Shown: positions 3,294 through 35,351 of the stretch, one piece after another
Layout: every line of letters begins with the position of its first letter
Numbering within the stretch: position 1 is the first letter of the stretch
From: Parcubacteria group bacterium GW2011_GWA2_42_14
Lineage (GTDB): Bacteria; Patescibacteriota; Minisyncoccia; Sungbacterales; GWA2-42-14
Direction of reading: 5' to 3'
Length of the DNA: 64,000 nt
Assembly (NCBI GenBank): GCA_000998135.1
Contig: LCCV01000002.1
Location: forward strand, 29,421 to 93,420
Translations under genes and position numbers: made by a program
The notes under the pieces: model-generated
Told to the model about the DNA's origin: nothing
The model's input: only the letters and a program-made list of their open reading frames with translations
The model's database searches: none

Positions 3294-3962
3294 TTAGCGC
3301 ACGCGGTCCTGTTCCTGTTCCTGTCGGAGCTTTAAAATGGTTTCCGATGGAACAAAACCGCGAAGCAACATATTGGGATAACAATAAACTTTTTTTCCAA
3401 GAAATGTAGCCGGCTGGGTTACGGTATTGCAGCCAAGGGAACTGTCGTCGCCGATAATCACGCCAAATTTTTCCAATCCGGTTTTCACTCCGGCAATTAC
3501 AACCTCGCTTCCGGTAACTTTAAAATTGGAAATCTTTGTTCCCGCTCCCAGATTTACTTTATTTCCCAAAATACTATGTCCTACAAACGCAAAATGCGGA
3601 GCTCTCGCGCCGTCCAAAAAAACAGAATTGCCCACTTCGCTAGCGTGTCCAATTACCACATTATTTCCGGCAATTACGTTCGCGCCCACAAAAGCGCCGT
3701 GGCGAATTTCACAATTCTCGCCTATAATAGCGGGCCCCATAATCCAGGCACCGGGCTGAACAACAGTTCCCTTACCCAAAAAAACTTTTTCTCCGACAAA
3801 CGCCCCCGGCATAACAACCCCTTCTGTAGCCGGTTTTAAATTTTTTTCTAAATATTCGGGAAGAAATTTCAAAAAATCAAAAATATAACCGCATCTTTCA
3901 AATAAGCTCTTGTGGGCAAATCGCGATAAATCAAAATAATATGAAAAATCTTTTATTTCCAT
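3294..3962 (-). CDS. Left-handed beta-helix (hexapeptide repeat) transferase, GlmU C-terminal-like (acetyl/acyltransferase).
   Basis: Multiple [LIV]-G-x-x-x-x hexapeptide repeats (GAFVGEKVFLGKGTVV, GPAIIGENCEI, GAFVGANVIAGNNVVIG, and others). Confidence 0.6.
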   Translation of the reverse strand: MEIKDFSYYFDLSRFAHKSLFERCGYIFDFLKFLPEYLEKNLKPATEGVVMPGAFVGEKVFLGKGTVVQPGAWIMGPAIIGENCEIRHGAFVGANVIAGNNVVIGHASEVGNSVFLDGARAPHFAFVGHSILGNKVNLGAGTKISNFKVTGSEVVIAGVKTGLEKFGVIIGDDSSLGCNTVTQPATFLGKKVYCYPNMLLRGFVPSETILKLRQEQEQDRVR

Positions 3963-4528
3963 AAATGTTTATATAATTTTTTAAAATCACGCAAAGCGTT
4001 TTCTTGGCTGTCAAAAGCCAGCTTGGGCAGGCGGCGGACATCAAACCATTTGCTTTCGGAAACATCGTCATAAGCTCCGGCTTTTACGCTATCAACACGC
4101 AACACATAAACAATATTCAATATATGAAATGGGTCAAATTTGGCCGGATATGTACCCGGATATATTCCAAATAATCTTTCAACTTTAGCCGAAAGCCCCG
4201 TTTCCTCCTTAATCTCGCGAAGAATCGTTTTTTGCGGATTTTCGCCTCTTTCCACAAAACCTCCGGGCAAGTCCCACCATCCTTTAAACGGCTCGCGCGC
4301 CCTTTTTGTTAAAAGAATCCTTCTGCCGTTTAAAATAAAAGCGCCGGTGGTCGGACGAGGGTTCCGATAATTAACAAAAGGACACCTTTCACACGCCAAA
4401 TTAATACCCTTATTAACCAGTTTGCTTCCGCACACTGAACAGAATCCATACCGAACCAAAGGATTTTGCTTACCATTCTTTGCGTTCTTTTGGCTATTTT
4501 TCACCGTTAATTTCTTCATAGTATTCAA
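3953..4528 (-). CDS. NUDIX hydrolase with N-terminal zinc ribbon.
   Basis: Nudix box GGFVERGENPQKTILREIKEETGL (Gx5Ex7REUxEExGU). N-terminal CxxC...CxxC (CSVCGSK...CERC). Confidence 0.8.
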   Translation of the reverse strand: MNTMKKLTVKNSQKNAKNGKQNPLVRYGFCSVCGSKLVNKGINLACERCPFVNYRNPRPTTGAFILNGRRILLTKRAREPFKGWWDLPGGFVERGENPQKTILREIKEETGLSAKVERLFGIYPGTYPAKFDPFHILNIVYVLRVDSVKAGAYDDVSESKWFDVRRLPKLAFDSQENALRDFKKLYKHLWK

Positions 4529-5459
4529 CTTCCCGCGGGGTATGGCGTATAATCAACTCTGCCAAAAGCCCCATAAGGATAAACTGGAATCCTACCATAA
4601 TAAATATGCCTATAAGAACCGGCAAGGGAGTTTTAATAAAATCAGCGTACTTTATGAATTTCAAATAAACCATCCAGCCGAATAAAAGAAAAGCTATAAA
4701 AAATGACCAAAAACCGACCGCACCAAAAAAATGCATAGGGCGCCTGCCGTACTTATAAAAAAAGTGAAAAGTTATTACGTCAAAAAATACCCGGAAAGTG
4801 CGAAGAAGCCCGTAATTGGATTTTCCGAAGGGCCTTGGTTTGAACCCTATGGGAATTTCAGTAACTTTGGCGCCCTCCTTAGACGCGTAAGCGGCAATCA
4901 TACGCTGCATATAAATACCGAGTTCGAGCCTCTCAAGAATCTGGCGGCGATATGCCTTCATGTTGCATCCGTAATCATTAAGGTAAACTCCGGTCACCCA
5001 AGAAATAAATTTATTAGCGGCCAGCGACGGAATGCGGCGCGTAAAAAATTCCCCCTCCCAGCGGTTTTTTCTCCACCCGCATACCACGTCAAAACCCTCG
5101 CCCAATTTGCCGATAAGTTTTAAAATATCTTCCGGGTCATTCTCAAGGTCGCCGTCCATGGTCACCACGATTTCTCCATGAGCTTTTCTGATGCCCGTGG
5201 CCATAGCCGTAAACTGGCCGTAATTCCGGTTTAAAAGAATAGAACGCGCCCTTAAGGTGCGTATAATTTCTCTTGTTTTGTCGGTGGAGCCGTCATCAAC
5301 CAAAATAATCTCAAACGTTTTTCCGGTTCTACTAAGAGTTTCCCGTAATTTTTGAGTTAGCGCCTGAACTGATTTTTCCTCGTTGAAAACAGGCACGACC
5401 ACCGAAATTTCAATTCTTTCCATAATCAAAATCGTACCATAAGACAAGGGTTGAGTCAA
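4494..5459 (-). CDS. GT2 polyprenyl-phosphate glycosyltransferase (GtrB/ArnC/DPM1-like) with a C-terminal TM pair.
   Basis: ISVVVPVFNEE...ILVDDGSTDKT...DGDLENDPE motifs typical of GT2 lipid-phosphate sugar transferases. Two C-terminal hydrophobic helices. Confidence 0.8.
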   Translation of the reverse strand: MTQPLSYGTILIMERIEISVVVPVFNEEKSVQALTQKLRETLSRTGKTFEIILVDDGSTDKTREIIRTLRARSILLNRNYGQFTAMATGIRKAHGEIVVTMDGDLENDPEDILKLIGKLGEGFDVVCGWRKNRWEGEFFTRRIPSLAANKFISWVTGVYLNDYGCNMKAYRRQILERLELGIYMQRMIAAYASKEGAKVTEIPIGFKPRPFGKSNYGLLRTFRVFFDVITFHFFYKYGRRPMHFFGAVGFWSFFIAFLLFGWMVYLKFIKYADFIKTPLPVLIGIFIMVGFQFILMGLLAELIIRHTPREVEYYEEINGEK

Positions 5460-5534
5460 AAAAAGTAAGGCCCCCTTGCTCCTAAATTAAGTACAAATCC
5501 TAAAAATAGAGCCGTACTGAATTAGAATAATAGA

Positions 5535-6062
5535 TTAAGAATTTGTTGTGTTATCATCCTTTGGTGTGCAGAGTGTTGGAGTAAAATATTTCTCCACCAT
5601 CACGTCAAATTTATCCAAAAGTTCTTGGAAAATACAGAACTGTTCTAAATTTTTTATCGGCTCCATTTCGCCAAAAGGATGTTTAGAAAATCTAAAATAA
5701 GGTTTTTCTTTGCAGCTTACAACCGCTATAATAACTTCCTGCCAACTATTTTTAAGCAACCAAAGCATTTTATAGTCATTATCATGCCATTTGGAATCCC
5801 ATCTAAACTTAACTTCAACCAAATAAGGACTGCCGGTTTTATCAATAACAAAGAAGTCGGGAATAGACCTTATTTTTTCACCAACTTCACTATTGCGCTT
5901 AAAAGATTCCTGAATACGAGCAAGACCCGGAAGTATTGCTTCATATCCAATTCTAAATACTTCATTTCCGGATTCTTTCAACAAATCATAAACCAAAGAT
6001 TCGGCCATACGGCCCTTTAAACTTGTTTCACGCCATTCTTGTTTTTTAGGTTGAATATCCAT
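5535..6062 (-). CDS. Hypothetical protein with a PD-(D/E)xK nuclease-fold motif (YraN/UPF0102-like).
   Basis: IPDFFVIDKTGSPYLVEVKFR contains PD...EVK spaced as in restriction-endonuclease-fold proteins. There is no other recognisable domain. Its start codon and first 9 codons lie inside repeat module R1, which is duplicated at 6554-6592. Confidence 0.4.
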   Translation of the reverse strand: MDIQPKKQEWRETSLKGRMAESLVYDLLKESGNEVFRIGYEAILPGLARIQESFKRNSEVGEKIRSIPDFFVIDKTGSPYLVEVKFRWDSKWHDNDYKMLWLLKNSWQEVIIAVVSCKEKPYFRFSKHPFGEMEPIKNLEQFCIFQELLDKFDVMVEKYFTPTLCTPKDDNTTNS

Positions 6063-6139
6063 AAATTTGTTTTATAACATACCAACATTCTCAAGTTTGT
6101 AAGGATGTTGTAAATATGTTGTTATGCTATATGCGACTA

Positions 6140-6424
6140 TTAGATGCGCTGGAATGATTTCAAAAAACTAACAAACGTTTTGCCGTACGGAGACAGAGTA
6201 TGCTCCACAAATTTACCACGATATTTTTTGTTGATAAGCCCCGCTTGATAAAGGCGCCTGGTATGTTCGCCTAAGGTTTTCTCATTTGCTCCGAGTGCCT
6301 CAACAATATCCTCAAGGGTTATACCTTCACTCCCCGCAATCAAAAGCAATATCTCAATGCGGTAATGATTCGACATTCCCTTAAGATGCCGCTCCATTTG
6401 TTTTGCCGTCTTCATTTTCATCAT
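6140..6424 (-). CDS. ArsR/SmtB-like winged-HTH transcriptional regulator (small, about 95 aa).
   Basis: HYRIEILLLIAG...LEDIVEALGANEKTLGEHTRRLYQAGLI is a classic HTH_20 layout. The ORF is open to 6559, but that N-terminal extension overlaps a palindromic repeat. The start is more likely the internal MMKMK at about 6424. It is a paralog of 33158..33427. Confidence 0.6.
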   Translation of the reverse strand: MMKMKTAKQMERHLKGMSNHYRIEILLLIAGSEGITLEDIVEALGANEKTLGEHTRRLYQAGLINKKYRGKFVEHTLSPYGKTFVSFLKSFQRI

Positions 6425-6598
6425 ATTTGTATTACACAACATCCTTATATTCTCAAGTTTGTAAGGATGTTGTGGATGTGTTGTAATATTGTATGCTACT
6501 ATCTTAAATTTGTTAGTGTATTGTTTTGATTTTGTTGCGCCAACCCGGTCCCGCTTCATTCTTGTTTTTTAGCTTGAGTATCCATAAATTTATTTAAT

Positions 6599-7756
6599 TT
6601 AAGCCAGCGCCAACTTTACATGCCCAACAATATAATCCAGTTCGGATTCTGTTAGGTCAGGAAAAAGCGGAAGGGTTATGACGCTTTTGGAAAGTTTTTC
6701 GGTTGCCGGAAGGGACTTGACCGGAAAATTCTTTTTATAAAAAGTTTGTAAATGCACCGGAGGGTCAAAGTGAACGCTTGCGCTGATCCCATTTTCCCGC
6801 AGTTTTAAAACAAGGCCGTCCCGTACTTCCGGCTTAACTTTAATAACATACATTTGCCAGACCGACTCGGCTCCGGGAAATTCACGCGGCAACTCTATCA
6901 ATCCTTCCGTTTCAAGTGAATTCAAAGATGAATTAAGATATTCCGCGTGCTTTTTTCTTTTGGCATTCAAACCCGACAGCTTCTTCATCTGCGCTACTCC
7001 GATCGCGGCCGGTATATCCCCCATCCGATAATTTACTCCGGCCATAACCGAATCGCGTTCCCATGGCCTTTCCAGTTTTTGCCGTTCATGGGTGTCGCGC
7101 GATATTCCGTGCGACATAAATGTCCGCACACGCTCGGCAAATGAATGGTCATTAGTAATAATCACCCCGCCTTCACCGGTAGTAATATTCTTGGTTGCCC
7201 AAAAAGAAAAGCATCCGGCACTTCCGAATGTTCCCGCGAATTTTCCATTCCATTTACCGCCAATACACTCCGCGGAATCCTCAATTACGTAAAGATTATG
7301 TTTTTTAGCGATTGCCGCTATCGCATCCATATCGCACGGAAACCCAGCAAAATGTACCGGCATAATGACCTCCGTTTTTTTTGTAATAAGCCCTTCAATT
7401 AAAGAAGCGTCCATATTGCCGGTCTTCCATTCAACATCACAAAAAACCGGTGTGGCACCGGCGCGAACAACCGCGTTTGCTGTCGCGGACATGGTAAAAC
7501 TCGGAATTATCACTTCCCCCCTTATGCCAAGCCCTACCAATGCCGCCTCAAGAGCCGAAGCGCAGGAATTAAGCAGAATCACTTCTTTTACTCCAAAAAA
7601 ATCAGCAAGAAGTTTTTCAAATTCTTTATTTTTGGGCCCATGCGCCACCCAGCCCGAAGCAAGCACACCCCTAACTTCTTCAAGCTCCGAACCATCAAAA
7701 GATGGCCGGCAAAGCGGAATATTCACCCCGTTAGATATTTTAAGCCGCTTTAGCAT
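6599..7756 (-). CDS. DegT/DnrJ/EryC1/StrS-family PLP-dependent sugar aminotransferase.
   Basis: Length about 385 aa. N-terminal ELEEVRGVLASGWV and the fold-type I aminotransferase pattern. Sits in a sugar-modification context. Confidence 0.85.
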   Translation of the reverse strand: MLKRLKISNGVNIPLCRPSFDGSELEEVRGVLASGWVAHGPKNKEFEKLLADFFGVKEVILLNSCASALEAALVGLGIRGEVIIPSFTMSATANAVVRAGATPVFCDVEWKTGNMDASLIEGLITKKTEVIMPVHFAGFPCDMDAIAAIAKKHNLYVIEDSAECIGGKWNGKFAGTFGSAGCFSFWATKNITTGEGGVIITNDHSFAERVRTFMSHGISRDTHERQKLERPWERDSVMAGVNYRMGDIPAAIGVAQMKKLSGLNAKRKKHAEYLNSSLNSLETEGLIELPREFPGAESVWQMYVIKVKPEVRDGLVLKLRENGISASVHFDPPVHLQTFYKKNFPVKSLPATEKLSKSVITLPLFPDLTESELDYIVGHVKLALA

Positions 7757-35289: not shown

Positions 35290-35301
35290 TATAAAAATAT
35301 A

Positions 35302-35327
35302 AATTAATTAACGATCGTTAATTAATT
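35302..35327. promoter_or_regulatory. 26-bp palindromic operator-like motif AATTAATTAACGATCGTTAATTAATT, 13-38 bp upstream of the LTD-protein start.
   Basis: Perfect palindrome. Near-identical copies are at 57699-57724 and 58424-58449, each upstream of a minus-strand gene. Confidence 0.5.
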
Positions 35328-35351
35328 TTTCACTTTAAATATGGCCATATA

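What the first reader, a model, noticed from the sequence alone, without database searches (positions are those of the whole stretch)
6029..6600. ArsR-like regulator cassette flanked by duplicated R1/R2 modules. R1 duplicates the start of the PD-(D/E)xK gene.
Module R1 is about 35 bp (cattcttgttttttagNttgaNtatccataaattt). Module R2 is about 55 bp (attctcaagtttgtaaggatgttgt...tatgctactat). R2 contains the 12-bp inverted repeat ACAACATCCTTA-N14-TAAGGATGTTGT. The order is R1-R2 at 6032-6140 and R2-R1 at 6447-6592, bracketing the ArsR-like gene. R1 carries the ATG and first codons of the nuclease-fold gene (MDIQPKKQE). Its second copy encodes a truncated pseudo-start MDTQAKKQE-stop just downstream of the DegT gene. 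This looks like an insertion or duplication footprint. It also provides the same palindromic operator upstream of both the regulator and the nuclease-like gene, suggesting co-regulation.
Basis: seen in the sequence. Interest (0 to 1): 0.55.

Follow-up and report, generated by a model that had tools for sequence, protein, structure and literature searches.

The report
Regulator promoter copied onto neighbouring nuclease gene
The repeats are real: the longer one is the promoter and binding site of a small, very conserved DNA-binding regulator of Parcubacteria, copied in front of the neighbouring nuclease-like gene, and the shorter one is a leftover gene start at the edge of a 1.2-kb insertion into a sugar-synthesis operon.

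Summary
R1 (42 nt, 90% identical) and R2 (81 nt, 77% identical) each occur twice and nowhere else in the 64 kb.

R2 is not a simple insertion footprint. It holds a 34-bp dyad, AACATCCTTAC-AAACTTGAGAAT-GTAAGGATGTT. Among 82 loci with a homologue of this 94-aa ArsR-type gene (83-95% identical, more than 2,100 homologues), 78 carry the dyad upstream and 72 carry it downstream.

The upstream dyad is usually followed by TATAAT at -12 to -7 from the ATG. This predicts a leaderless mRNA with the operator lying over the promoter.

The window's downstream copy is unusual. It is an ~80-bp duplicate of the regulator's own promoter, placed at -47 from the ATG of an Hjc-like PD-(D/E)xK gene. Co-regulation of the two genes is therefore plausible, although one arm of that dyad is degenerate.

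Three relatives have DegT directly next to the glycosyltransferase. So window 5425-6626, which holds both the regulator and the nuclease gene, is a lineage-specific, low-GC insert.

R1' lies at the left edge of that insert. It is a dead stub of a nuclease 5' end and most likely a recombination scar.

No binding or transcript data exist. Overall this is a new variant of a known kind, of moderate interest.

The parts
6599..7756 (-). DegT/DnrJ/EryC1-type aminotransferase. It is the left flank of the insert, and homology to relatives ends near 6627.
   Evidence: Pfam PF01041 E=1.4e-114. DNA homology to L148, L151 and L152 runs up to window 6627-6660.
5425..6626 (-). Lineage-specific ~1.2-kb segment inserted between DegT and the GT2 glycosyltransferase. 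It holds R1', the spacer, R2', arsR, R2, R1 and the nuclease gene.
   Evidence: Three relatives have DegT-GT2 adjacent. Homology stops at about 6627 and resumes at 5424. GC is 35.8%, against 43-46% in the flanking genes.
6557..6598 (-). R1': a dead copy of the nuclease gene start. It has 13 nt of native upstream context followed by ATG GAT ACT CAA GCT AAA AAA CAA GAA TG, which then runs into TGA.
   Evidence: 42 nt, 90% identical to 6034-6075 (D3). It translates as MDTQAKKQE*. The context AAATAAATTTATG is shared with nuclease homologues in L011, L017, L062 and L063.
6503..6556 (-). 54-nt spacer without a repeat partner.
   Evidence: No repeat family covers the spacer as a whole (only short chance-level pairs, I16 and I17, touch it). 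It has no significant fold (z=+0.9).
6425..6502 (-). R2': promoter-operator of the ArsR-like gene. It contains the 34-bp dyad at 6438-6471, perfect 13-nt arms at 6435-6447 and 6462-6474, an extra half-site at 6474-6484, and a degenerate -10 (TAATAC) at about 6429-6434.
   Evidence: (D1, I13, I18). RNA/DNA hairpin z=-3.9.
6140..6424 (-). ArsR/SmtB-type winged-helix regulator of 94 aa, with no cysteine. The annotated 139-aa ORF 6140..6559 is an over-extension.
   Evidence: Pfam HTH_5 scores 30.2 bits against a cutoff of 22. Closest solved structures are YgaV, ArsR, CadC and HlyU. More than 2,100 homologues of 83-95% identity and about 94-100 aa start at the same Met.
6063..6139 (-). R2: duplicate of the regulator's promoter-operator, filling the whole arsR-nuclease intergenic region. 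The dyad at 6076-6109 has 8 of 11 arm complementarity. A -10-like TATAAA lies at about 6071-6076, and the ATG is 13 nt after the dyad.
   Evidence: D1, 77% over 81 nt. One search shows both dyads start at -47 from their ATG, and that this one starts 30 nt after the arsR stop, unlike 44 of 60 family members, where it abuts the stop.
6034..6075 (-). R1: the live start of the nuclease-like gene (13 nt upstream plus the first 29 coding nt).
   Evidence: D3. The N-terminal KQEWRET is conserved in homologues.
5535..6062 (-). 175-aa PD-(D/E)xK (Hjc-like) nuclease-fold protein of unknown function.
   Evidence: Invariant E21, P68-D69 and E83-V-K85 in 25 homologues. AlphaFold pLDDT 83. Best Foldseek hits are archaeal Hjc resolvases, probability about 1.0, E about 1e-3. 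No Pfam or PADLOC hit.
4494..5459 (-). Family-2 glycosyltransferase. It is the right flank of the insert and is adjacent to DegT in relatives.
   Evidence: Pfam PF00535 E=1.1e-32..

Best explanation
R2 and R2' are two copies of the promoter-operator module of a small ArsR-type winged-helix repressor that is very conserved in Parcubacteria.

How the module is built:
- It is a 34-bp dyad (AACATCCTTAC / AAACTTGAGAAT / GTAAGGATGTT) followed by a -10 hexamer.
- The hexamer lies at -12 to -7 from the A of the ATG, so transcription should start at the start codon, giving a leaderless mRNA.
- A bound dimer, or pair of dimers, would cover the -35 and spacer region and shut the promoter off. This is autorepression.

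Family-wide pattern:
- A second dyad normally abuts the regulator's stop codon.
- There it probably acts both as an operator for whatever lies downstream and as a 3' hairpin.

What happened in this genome:
- The downstream site is instead an ~80-bp duplicate of the regulator's own promoter.
- It is fused at the same distance (-47) to an Hjc-like PD-(D/E)xK gene, which puts that gene under the same control.
- The pair sits in a ~1.2-kb low-GC segment inserted between DegT and a glycosyltransferase.

R1':
- It lies at the left edge of the segment and is a non-functional stub of a nuclease 5' end.
- It was probably left when the regulator-promoter segment was joined in front of the nuclease gene.
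- The likely route is recombination anchored in the nuclease gene: a single crossover of a circular fragment, or homology-facilitated illegitimate recombination.

Shown: the repeats, the family-wide architecture, the empty site, and the fold.
Inferred: binding of the protein to the dyad, repression, leaderless initiation, and the recombination route.
For: Family-wide architecture:
- Among 80 metagenome loci plus L030 and the window, the dyad is found upstream in 78 of 82 and downstream in 72 of 82.
- The upstream dyad ends 15 nt before the ATG in 46 of 66 distinct loci.
- In those 46, T-A-T-A-A-T at -12 to -7 is present in 46, 46, 41, 42, 41 and 46 sequences respectively.
- The downstream dyad starts at -2 to +1 from the end of the stop codon in 44 of 60.

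Regulator and dyad change together:
- Paralogues at 63% identity (L068, L123) carry AACATTCCGAC...GTCGGAATGTT on both sides.
- Paralogues at 35% identity (L034, L050) carry a TTTTGCAAAA-core dyad on both sides. In L050 it also lies upstream of the adjacent nuclease homologue.

Dyad symmetry and other targets:
- Symmetry is kept in 81-86% of cells, and positions 6/29, 8/27, 9/26 and 11/24 covary above shuffles.
- 27 further dyads lie within a few kb of the regulator in 318 kb. Many of them lie 10-15 nt before the ATG of another gene.
- A looser scan of 492 kb of nuclease and DegT loci found clear dyads (centre match of at least 9 of 12) only at arsR flanks and at two L064-type sites. One shuffled control gave 1 hit, which was not checked for centre match.

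This window:
- Both dyads start at -47 from their ATG, and the repeat extends about 30 nt 5' of the dyad.

Empty site. GC of the insert is 35.8%.

Protein assignments:
- Regulator: HTH_5 above the gathering score; YgaV, ArsR, CadC and HlyU are the closest solved structures.
- Nuclease.

R1' keeps the native nuclease start context AAATAAATTTATG seen in homologues.
Against: - No experimental binding, transcript-start or expression data exist for any member.
- The window's own -10 elements are degenerate: TAATAC for arsR and TATAAA/TAAAAC for the nuclease gene.
- One arm of the nuclease-side dyad matches only 8 of 11, so repression there may be weak or lost.
- The variable arm positions covary although the protein is about 90% conserved. 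A pure protein-contact model does not require this, and it hints at a hairpin or cruciform role.
- Downstream dyads show more top-strand G-U-compatible mismatches (40 against 15) than upstream ones (42 against 35), which suggests an RNA-level role as well.
- In 21 of 60 loci the crude ORF scan found no same-strand start within 60 nt after the downstream dyad. So operator for the next gene cannot be its only role.
- Most nuclease homologues are not next to the regulator: only 3 of 48 genome loci are.
- The route that created R1' cannot be reconstructed from one lineage.
Confidence: 0.68

Rival explanations
1. The dyads are boundaries of a mobile or recombinogenic palindromic element. The unit dyad-arsR-dyad, or the dyad alone, moves or recombines, as REP sequences flank RAYT genes, as pdif modules do, or as integron cassettes do. 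On this view the R1/R2 pattern is the footprint of such a movement.
For: - The regulator gene sits in very many different gene contexts with the dyads always attached.
- The upstream neighbour can be conserved while the downstream one changes exactly at the dyad, as in L093, L105, L127 and L137.
- Hybrid dyads that mix the two common arm types are frequent.
- Five dyad copies lie in frame inside TspO genes and are absent from TspO relatives that are 76% identical.
- L134 has a downstream copy that duplicates the promoter plus the first codons of arsR, a pseudo-start like R1'.
- Two assemblies, L009 and L010, break inside R2.
Against: - No recombinase or transposase is in the window locus or is recurrent next to the gene.
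- There is no attL/attR-like arm swap: within-site complementarity is 1060 against 1029 for cross-site.
- The dyad keeps fixed distances to the -10 hexamer, the ATG and the stop codon, as expected of a regulatory site.
- Copies are few and cluster near the regulator rather than being dispersed.
- arsR DNA is only about 78% identical between lineages where the protein is 80% identical, so the gene is old rather than recently spread.
Confidence: 0.14
2. The dyads act mainly at the RNA level. The downstream copy is a terminator or stabilising 3' hairpin of the regulator mRNA, and the upstream copy terminates the preceding gene. The similarity between R2 and R2' would then reflect a shared hairpin rather than a shared operator.
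For: - The hairpin is stable: -17.3 kcal/mol, z=-3.9 for R2'.
- The downstream dyad abuts the stop codon in 73% of loci.
- A T-run follows in 10 of 60.
- There is an excess of top-strand G-U-compatible mismatches in downstream copies, 40 against 15.
Against: - No terminator-like site is scored in the window.
- 50 of 60 downstream dyads lack a T-run.
- The upstream dyad has a fixed phase to TATAAT and the ATG, which a terminator does not need.
- The centre AAACTTGAGAAT and outer AACAT/ATGTT are conserved in sequence, not only in pairing.
- Regulator paralogues carry their own dyad types.
- Rfam has no match.
Confidence: 0.1
3. This is a dedicated controller-plus-toxic-nuclease pair, comparable to a C-protein with a restriction endonuclease or to an antitoxin-toxin pair. 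The regulator would exist to delay or limit expression of the nuclease after the module enters a new host.
For: - A small HTH autoregulator lies directly upstream of a PD-(D/E)xK gene with a shared dyad and predicted leaderless transcripts. This resembles C-protein/C-box control (my own knowledge of C.PvuII and C.AhdI systems).
- The pair arrived as a low-GC insert.
- Regulator-nuclease proximity recurs in L030, L034, L050 and L075.
- Other neighbours include a DUF559/MTES_1575 endonuclease and an EEP nuclease.
Against: - There is no methyltransferase or other partner gene.
- The regulator is ArsR-type, not Xre-type.
- The regulator family is mostly next to unrelated genes such as TspO, a SWIM-like protein, MnmA and membrane proteins.
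- 45 of 48 nuclease loci lack it.
- There is no PADLOC hit for the nuclease.
Confidence: 0.06

Closest known systems
ArsR/SmtB-family autorepressors (SmtB, CzrA, CadC, ArsR, E. coli YgaV) binding imperfect 12-2-12-type inverted repeats over their own promoters
   Same: - Winged-helix domain of the same Pfam family (HTH_5).
- Small size.
- Dyad-symmetric site overlapping the gene's own promoter.
- The closest solved relatives by sequence are YgaV, ArsR, CadC and HlyU.
   Different: - No cysteine and no alpha-5 His/Asp/Glu site, so it is not a recognisable metal sensor.
- Below the NCBIfam metalloregulator cutoff (35.8 against 55).
- 34-bp dyad.
- A second dyad abutting the stop codon in most loci.
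- Predicted leaderless mRNA.
- 83-95% identity across more than 2,100 homologues from many Patescibacteria lineages.
Controller (C) proteins of restriction-modification systems with C-box operators
   Same: - Small HTH autoregulator.
- Palindromic boxes next to the -10.
- Often leaderless transcripts.
- A nuclease gene downstream (this comparison rests on my own knowledge).
   Different: - The HTH is of a different class (Xre-type in C proteins).
- No methyltransferase.
- The regulator is not specific to nuclease genes.
- The nuclease is Hjc-like with no sign of being a restriction enzyme.
REP sequences flanking RAYT genes (REPtrons), and Rickettsia palindromic elements
   Same: - A gene bracketed on both sides by the palindrome that also occurs elsewhere.
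- In-frame palindrome copies inside a protein-coding gene (TspO), as with Rickettsia palindromic elements.
   Different: - The bracketed protein is a 94-aa winged helix, not an HUH transposase.
- Copies are few, local and promoter-phased.
- No evidence of transposition.
Homology-facilitated illegitimate recombination, or Campbell-type single crossover, as the source of short direct duplications at insert borders
   Same: A 42-nt direct repeat of a gene start brackets the newly joined DNA. One copy is intact and the other is truncated at the junction.
   Different: Only inferred. No donor arrangement (arsR-R2-R1-nuclease elsewhere) and no intermediate (DegT-nuclease-GT2) was found.
Archaeal Holliday junction resolvase Hjc (PD-(D/E)xK)
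   Same: - Best structural matches.
- Catalytic-type E...PD...ExK residues are invariant.
   Different: - TM-scores are only 0.32-0.50 and E about 1e-3.
- It has an extra N-terminal helix and a C-terminal helix.
- No Pfam family.
- Activity is unknown.

Membership tests
ArsR/SmtB family (winged-helix repressors) | Winged helix-turn-helix domain matching the family profile | tested here: met
   Pfam PF01022 HTH_5 E=4.2e-07, 30.2 bits against a cutoff of 22. PDB sequence hits to YgaV, ArsR, CadC and HlyU, E 6e-4 to 3e-3.
ArsR/SmtB family (winged-helix repressors) | Curated metalloregulator subfamily score (NCBIfam NF033788) | tested here: not met
   35.8 bits against a cutoff of 55.
ArsR/SmtB family (winged-helix repressors) | Metal or metalloid ligand residues (alpha-3 Cys pair, or alpha-5 Asp/His...His/Glu) | tested here: not met
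   The 94-aa sequence has no cysteine, and only one His (H75) in the C-terminal helix region (read from the translation).
ArsR/SmtB family (winged-helix repressors) | Dyad-symmetric operator overlapping the gene's own promoter | tested here: met
   A 34-bp dyad ends 13-15 nt before the ATG, with TATAAT at -12 to -7, in 46 of 66 distinct loci. This is a comparative inference only.
ArsR/SmtB family (winged-helix repressors) | Demonstrated DNA binding released by an effector | not testable with these tools
   Needs EMSA or footprinting. The effector is unknown.
PD-(D/E)xK nuclease superfamily (Hjc-like) | Catalytic motif E ... PD ... (D/E)xK | tested here: met
   E21, P68-D69 and E83-V84-K85 are invariant in 25 homologues of 42-86% identity.
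PD-(D/E)xK nuclease superfamily (Hjc-like) | Restriction-endonuclease-like alpha/beta core fold | tested here: met
   Model pLDDT 83 and pTM 0.80. Foldseek top hits are Hjc 2eo0, 2wiw and 2wcw, probability 0.99-1.0, E 1e-3 to 5e-3, TM 0.32-0.50. Support is moderate.
PD-(D/E)xK nuclease superfamily (Hjc-like) | Nuclease activity | not testable with these tools
   No biochemical data.
Restriction-modification C-protein control units | Xre-type C protein plus a methyltransferase plus a restriction endonuclease in one unit | tested here: not met
   The regulator is ArsR-type. The neighbours are glycan-synthesis genes, with no DNA methyltransferase.
Mobile cassettes bounded by recombination sites (integron attC, pdif modules, REP/RAYT) | Cognate recombinase or transposase associated with the sites | tested here: not met
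   None in the window locus or recurrent in 80 loci.
Mobile cassettes bounded by recombination sites (integron attC, pdif modules, REP/RAYT) | Hybrid left and right sites, as after site-specific integration | tested here: not met
   Arm complementarity within sites is 1060 against 1029 across sites in 58 distinct loci.
Mobile cassettes bounded by recombination sites (integron attC, pdif modules, REP/RAYT) | Presence/absence polymorphism of the element at orthologous sites | tested here: inconclusive
   In-frame dyads occur in some TspO genes and are absent from close relatives. arsR lies in variable contexts. No clean orthologous empty site was found for arsR alone.
Intrinsic (rho-independent) terminator | GC-rich stem followed by a T-run | tested here: not met
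   0 terminator-like sites in 5400-6700. A T-run follows only 10 of 60 downstream dyads.

The most novel reading that the evidence does not exclude
The 34-bp dyad may be more than an operator. It may be a self-propagating or recombinogenic palindromic element of Parcubacteria.

On this reading:
- It carries a ready-made leaderless promoter and can even insert in frame into genes such as TspO.
- The ArsR-like protein is its dedicated binding and silencing factor.
- Hjc-like or other structure-specific nucleases, found repeatedly nearby, cut the extruded cruciform and so drive copying and gene shuffling at the dyads.

The R1/R2 pattern in this window would then be a fresh example of such an event.
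Probability: 0.1. Interest if true: 0.8.

Novelty: new variant of a known kind. Interest (0 to 1): 0.45.

Why it matters
Almost nothing is known about gene regulation in the candidate phyla radiation. These organisms are uncultivated and their genomes hold few regulators.

This work yields a concrete, testable pair. The protein is a 94-aa regulator, 83-95% identical in more than 2,100 sequences. Its predicted site is a 34-bp dyad, and its promoters share one simple design: the dyad, then TATAAT, then six bases, then the ATG.

That design allows several direct tests. The protein can be tested on the dyad in vitro. The regulon can be predicted from sequence alone. Groundwater metatranscriptomes can be used to test whether these mRNAs are leaderless.

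For this window, the result shows how an accessory nuclease gene was wired to that regulator by copying a promoter. It also shows that the pair is a recent insert in a cell-surface glycan operon. The insert itself is ordinary genome evolution.

Tried and rejected
Not found. Relatives have DegT-GT2 instead.
- **attL/attR-like swapped arms between the upstream and downstream dyads.** One locus (L087) looked like this, but across 58 loci there is no excess.
- **Known RNA family at R2.** Only a sub-threshold chance hit.
- **Terminator scan of the window.** None.
- **Defence-system models for the nuclease.** None. The regulator hits only the HTH part of Csa3/CARF proteins.
- **PDB sequence search with the nuclease profile.** It gave borderline hits to engineered LAGLIDADG I-OnuI proteins (E=1e-3). 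I regard these as spurious, because the invariant E/PD/ExK residues and the fold search point to Hjc-like PD-(D/E)xK.
- **Fixed promoter geometry between the downstream dyad and the next gene.** Seen in only a subset. My ORF-start caller is crude.
- **Operators upstream of nuclease homologues in general.** Most have none. Only L050 has one, with half-site remnants in L052 and L064 and unrelated long palindromes in L037 and L040.
- **Literature searches.** Searches for a described Parcubacteria ArsR/palindrome system or for leaderless promoters in CPR found nothing relevant.
- **Leaderless versus Shine-Dalgarno starts across the window.** The crude count was too noisy to use.
Full report
**Source and layout**

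The window comes from a Candidatus Sungbacteria (Parcubacteria, candidate phyla radiation) population. The 175-aa protein is encoded identically on GCA_001820775.1 contig MHQY01000018 and on 18 other contigs read. All genes in this part of the window lie on the minus strand.

In coding direction the order is:

| Feature | Window coordinates |
|---|---|
| DegT aminotransferase | 7756..6599 |
| R1' | 6598-6557 |
| Spacer (54 nt) | 6556-6503 |
| R2' | 6502-6425 |
| ArsR-like gene | 6424..6140 |
| R2 | 6139-6063 |
| R1 | 6075-6034 |
| Nuclease-like gene | 6062..5535 |
| Family-2 glycosyltransferase | 5459..4494 |

Yes.
- R1 is a 42-nt direct repeat, 90% identical. R2 is an 81-nt direct repeat, 77% identical.
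- The two R2 copies are in register with the two start codons, so what is duplicated is the whole stretch upstream of an ATG.
- The perfect inverted repeat (13-nt arms, 14-nt gap) exists only in R2'. In R2 one arm has diverged to TTGGTATGTT.
- R1' reads MDTQAKKQE-stop.
- Eight contigs from separate samples (L001-L008) span the stretch and agree at 99.7% identity or better. Two short assemblies end inside R2, as expected of a repeat.

**What R2 is**

The regulator has more than 2,100 homologues at 83-95% identity in many Patescibacteria lineages, including Sungbacteria, Uhrbacteria and Minisyncoccia. I fetched 80 metagenome loci and read the flanks.

The same 34-bp dyad, consensus AACATCCTTAC AAACTTGAGAAT GTAAGGATGTT, lies upstream in 78 of 82 loci and downstream in 72 of 82.

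Upstream dyad:
- It ends 15 nt before the ATG in 46 of 66 distinct loci.
- In those 46 the six bases at -12 to -7 from the A of the ATG are T, A, T, A, A, T in 46, 46, 41, 42, 41 and 46 sequences.
- A sigma-70 -10 hexamer normally lies about 7 nt upstream of the transcription start (established knowledge). The transcript should therefore begin at the start codon, giving a leaderless mRNA, and the dyad covers the -35 and spacer region. This is the classic position for an autorepressor.

Downstream dyad:
- It starts within -2 to +1 of the end of the stop codon in 44 of 60 distinct loci. Often the TAA forms part of AACAT.

**Why I assign the dyad to this protein**

The link is by association, but it is strong, because regulator paralogues carry different dyads in the same places.
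- The 63%-identity paralogues in L068 and L123 carry AACATTCCGAC...GTCGGAATGTT.
- The 35%-identity paralogues in L034 and L050 carry a TTTTGCAAAA-core dyad, followed by TACAAT or TATAAT, six bases and the ATG. A second copy overlaps their stop codon.

Dyad symmetry is kept in 81-86% of cells. Positions 6/29, 8/27, 9/26 and 11/24 covary above shuffled controls in both the upstream and downstream sets.

The invariant bases are C7, A10, A12, C15, A19, G20 and T25. T16 and G28 are invariant in one of the two sets and nearly so in the other, and the outer AACAT/ATGTT is nearly invariant. These are the likely contacts.

**Other targets**

Within the 318 kb of regulator loci there are 27 further distinct dyads. 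Many lie 10-15 nt upstream of the ATG of another gene, some with a TATAAT-like hexamer between.

A looser scan of 492 kb of nuclease and DegT loci, including the window, found clear dyads only at arsR flanks and at two sites in the L064 lineage.

Recurrent neighbours are TspO, a SWIM-like 243-aa protein, a membrane-anchored HTH_11 protein, MnmA, YdjM, an EEP nuclease and a DUF559/MTES_1575 endonuclease. This looks like a small local regulon.

**What is special in this window**

The downstream dyad does not abut the stop codon. It starts 30 nt after it.

The similarity between R2 and R2' extends about 30 nt 5' of the dyad, and 3' up to the ATG (D1). Both dyads start at -47 from their ATG.

R2 is therefore a local ~80-bp duplicate of the regulator's own promoter-operator, fused to the nuclease gene. 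A -10-like TATAAA lies 8 nt before that ATG.

However, the nuclease-side dyad is a hybrid: left arm CCTTAC-type, right arm GTTGGT-type. Such hybrids are common in the family.

**The insert**

The closest DegT relatives all show epimerase-DegT-GT2 with nothing in between:

| Relative | DegT identity to the window |
|---|---|
| L148-150 | 82% |
| L151 | 78% |
| L152-153 | 64% |

DNA homology to the window ends near 6627 and resumes at 5424. The 1.2-kb stretch between has 35.8% GC, against 43-46% for its neighbours.

Both genes are therefore an insertion into a glycan-synthesis operon.

**R1'**

R1' sits at the left edge of the insert, directly after the DegT stop.

It keeps the upstream context AAATAAATTTATG that nuclease homologues have in other genomes (L011, L017, L062, L063). 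It differs from R1 at 4 of 42 positions. Similarity stops exactly at GAATG, where a TGA arises.

It is most simply a dead stub of a nuclease 5' end, left by recombination anchored in the nuclease gene. One route is a single crossover of a circular fragment carrying spacer-R2'-arsR-R2-R1. Another is homology-facilitated illegitimate recombination. Either gives the observed order R1'-...-R1.

A duplication followed by a deletion would also work. I cannot tell these apart.

A comparable pseudo-start exists in L134, where the downstream copy repeats the promoter and first codons of arsR. Recombination at these dyads therefore seems to recur.

**The two proteins**

Regulator:
- It matches HTH_5 above threshold, and weakly matches YgaV, ArsR, CadC and HlyU.
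- It has no cysteine and falls below the NCBIfam metalloregulator cutoff.
- It is an ArsR-type fold, but probably not a metal sensor.

Nuclease-like protein:
- It has no Pfam or PADLOC hit.
- Its homologues keep E21, P68-D69 and E83-V-K85 invariant.
- The model (pLDDT 83) is closest to archaeal Hjc resolvases.
- Its homologues sit in many different contexts: NYN, PDDEXK_1, ResIII/TnsA-like, zeta toxin.
- Only 3 of 48 genome loci have an ArsR-like gene nearby. One of the 80 regulator loci, L075, also has a nuclease homologue.

**Rivals**

- **Mobile or recombinogenic palindrome.** This reading is not excluded. Evidence for it includes variable contexts, hybrid dyads, and in-frame copies in TspO that are absent from 76%-identical relatives. 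Against it, there is no recombinase, no att-like arm swap, and the copies are few and promoter-phased.
- **RNA hairpin role for the downstream copy.** This is likely as an additional function. Evidence for it includes the stop-codon position, T-runs in 10 of 60, and a G-U bias of 40 against 15. It does not explain the sequence conservation or the promoter phasing.
- **C-protein-like controller of a toxic nuclease.** This fits the local picture but not the family-wide one.

**Verdict**

This is an uncharacterised but conventional type of system, an autoregulated winged-helix repressor with its operator. It has an unusual bracketing architecture, plus a local promoter duplication and a recombination scar inside a small insert.

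I found no description of it in the searched literature.

Noticed in passing
L077:3549-3582; also L081:4639, L087:4590, L124:3730, L129:224: A copy of the 34-bp dyad lies in frame inside TspO/MBR genes and encodes a loop, QHPYILENVRML. TspO relatives up to 76% identical (L118, L117, L080) lack it and have a loop 7 residues shorter. This looks like an insertion, or an intragenic operator.
   Followed up: partly
L081 about 3325-3365; also L107, L114, L124, L123:3305, L131:1832: A conserved GC-rich hairpin, AATACGCCAG-n5-CGGCGTATT, follows the dyad in several unrelated loci. Its function is unknown, and it was not checked against RNA families.
   Followed up: no
L134:341-420: The downstream dyad copy repeats the regulator's whole promoter and its first codons (ATGGCGAAAAG...), giving a short pseudo-ORF. 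This parallels R1' in the window.
   Followed up: partly
window 6140-6559 (minus strand): Gene callers annotate a 139-aa ORF that reads through the dyad and starts at an ATG created at the R1' junction. Homologues and the promoter geometry show that the real protein is 94 aa, starting at 6424.
   Followed up: yes
window 6093 and 6430: There is population variation inside the regulatory modules. L003 has T>G at the dyad centre, which is the other common family variant (AAACTGGAG). L005 has a 3-nt AAT insertion between the -10 and the ATG of arsR.
   Followed up: partly
L037:3916-3961 and L040:3930-3958: Nuclease homologues in two other lineages are preceded by long perfect palindromes (16-nt and 14-nt arms) that are unrelated in sequence to R2.
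   Followed up: no
L052:3965-3985 and L064:5085-5100: Half-site remnants of the R2 dyad (AACAACATCCTAAG and ACGACAACCATCCTAA) lie just upstream of nuclease homologues that have no regulator next to them.
   Followed up: no
L064:4221-4254 and 5635-5668: Two dyads of related type are each followed by GTAAAATAAnTTT and an ATG. They precede an 84-aa ORF and a 39-aa ORF and flank a block that contains the nuclease homologue and lies next to a zeta-toxin gene.
   Followed up: partly
L127 and L093: In L127 the regulator lies between the 3' end and the 5' start (MKTFTELFN...) of genes of the same 320-aa family that lies upstream of arsR in L093. This suggests rearrangement or tandem paralogues at the dyads.
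   Followed up: no
window 35296-35329: An AT-rich near-perfect palindrome, AATATAAATTAATTAACGATCGTTAATTAATTTT, unrelated to R2.
   Followed up: no
L148:12074-12720: In the relative that shows the empty site, a nucleotidyltransferase/HepT-like toxin-antitoxin pair lies downstream of the conserved glycan genes. This is another small accessory insert in the same operon region.
   Followed up: no
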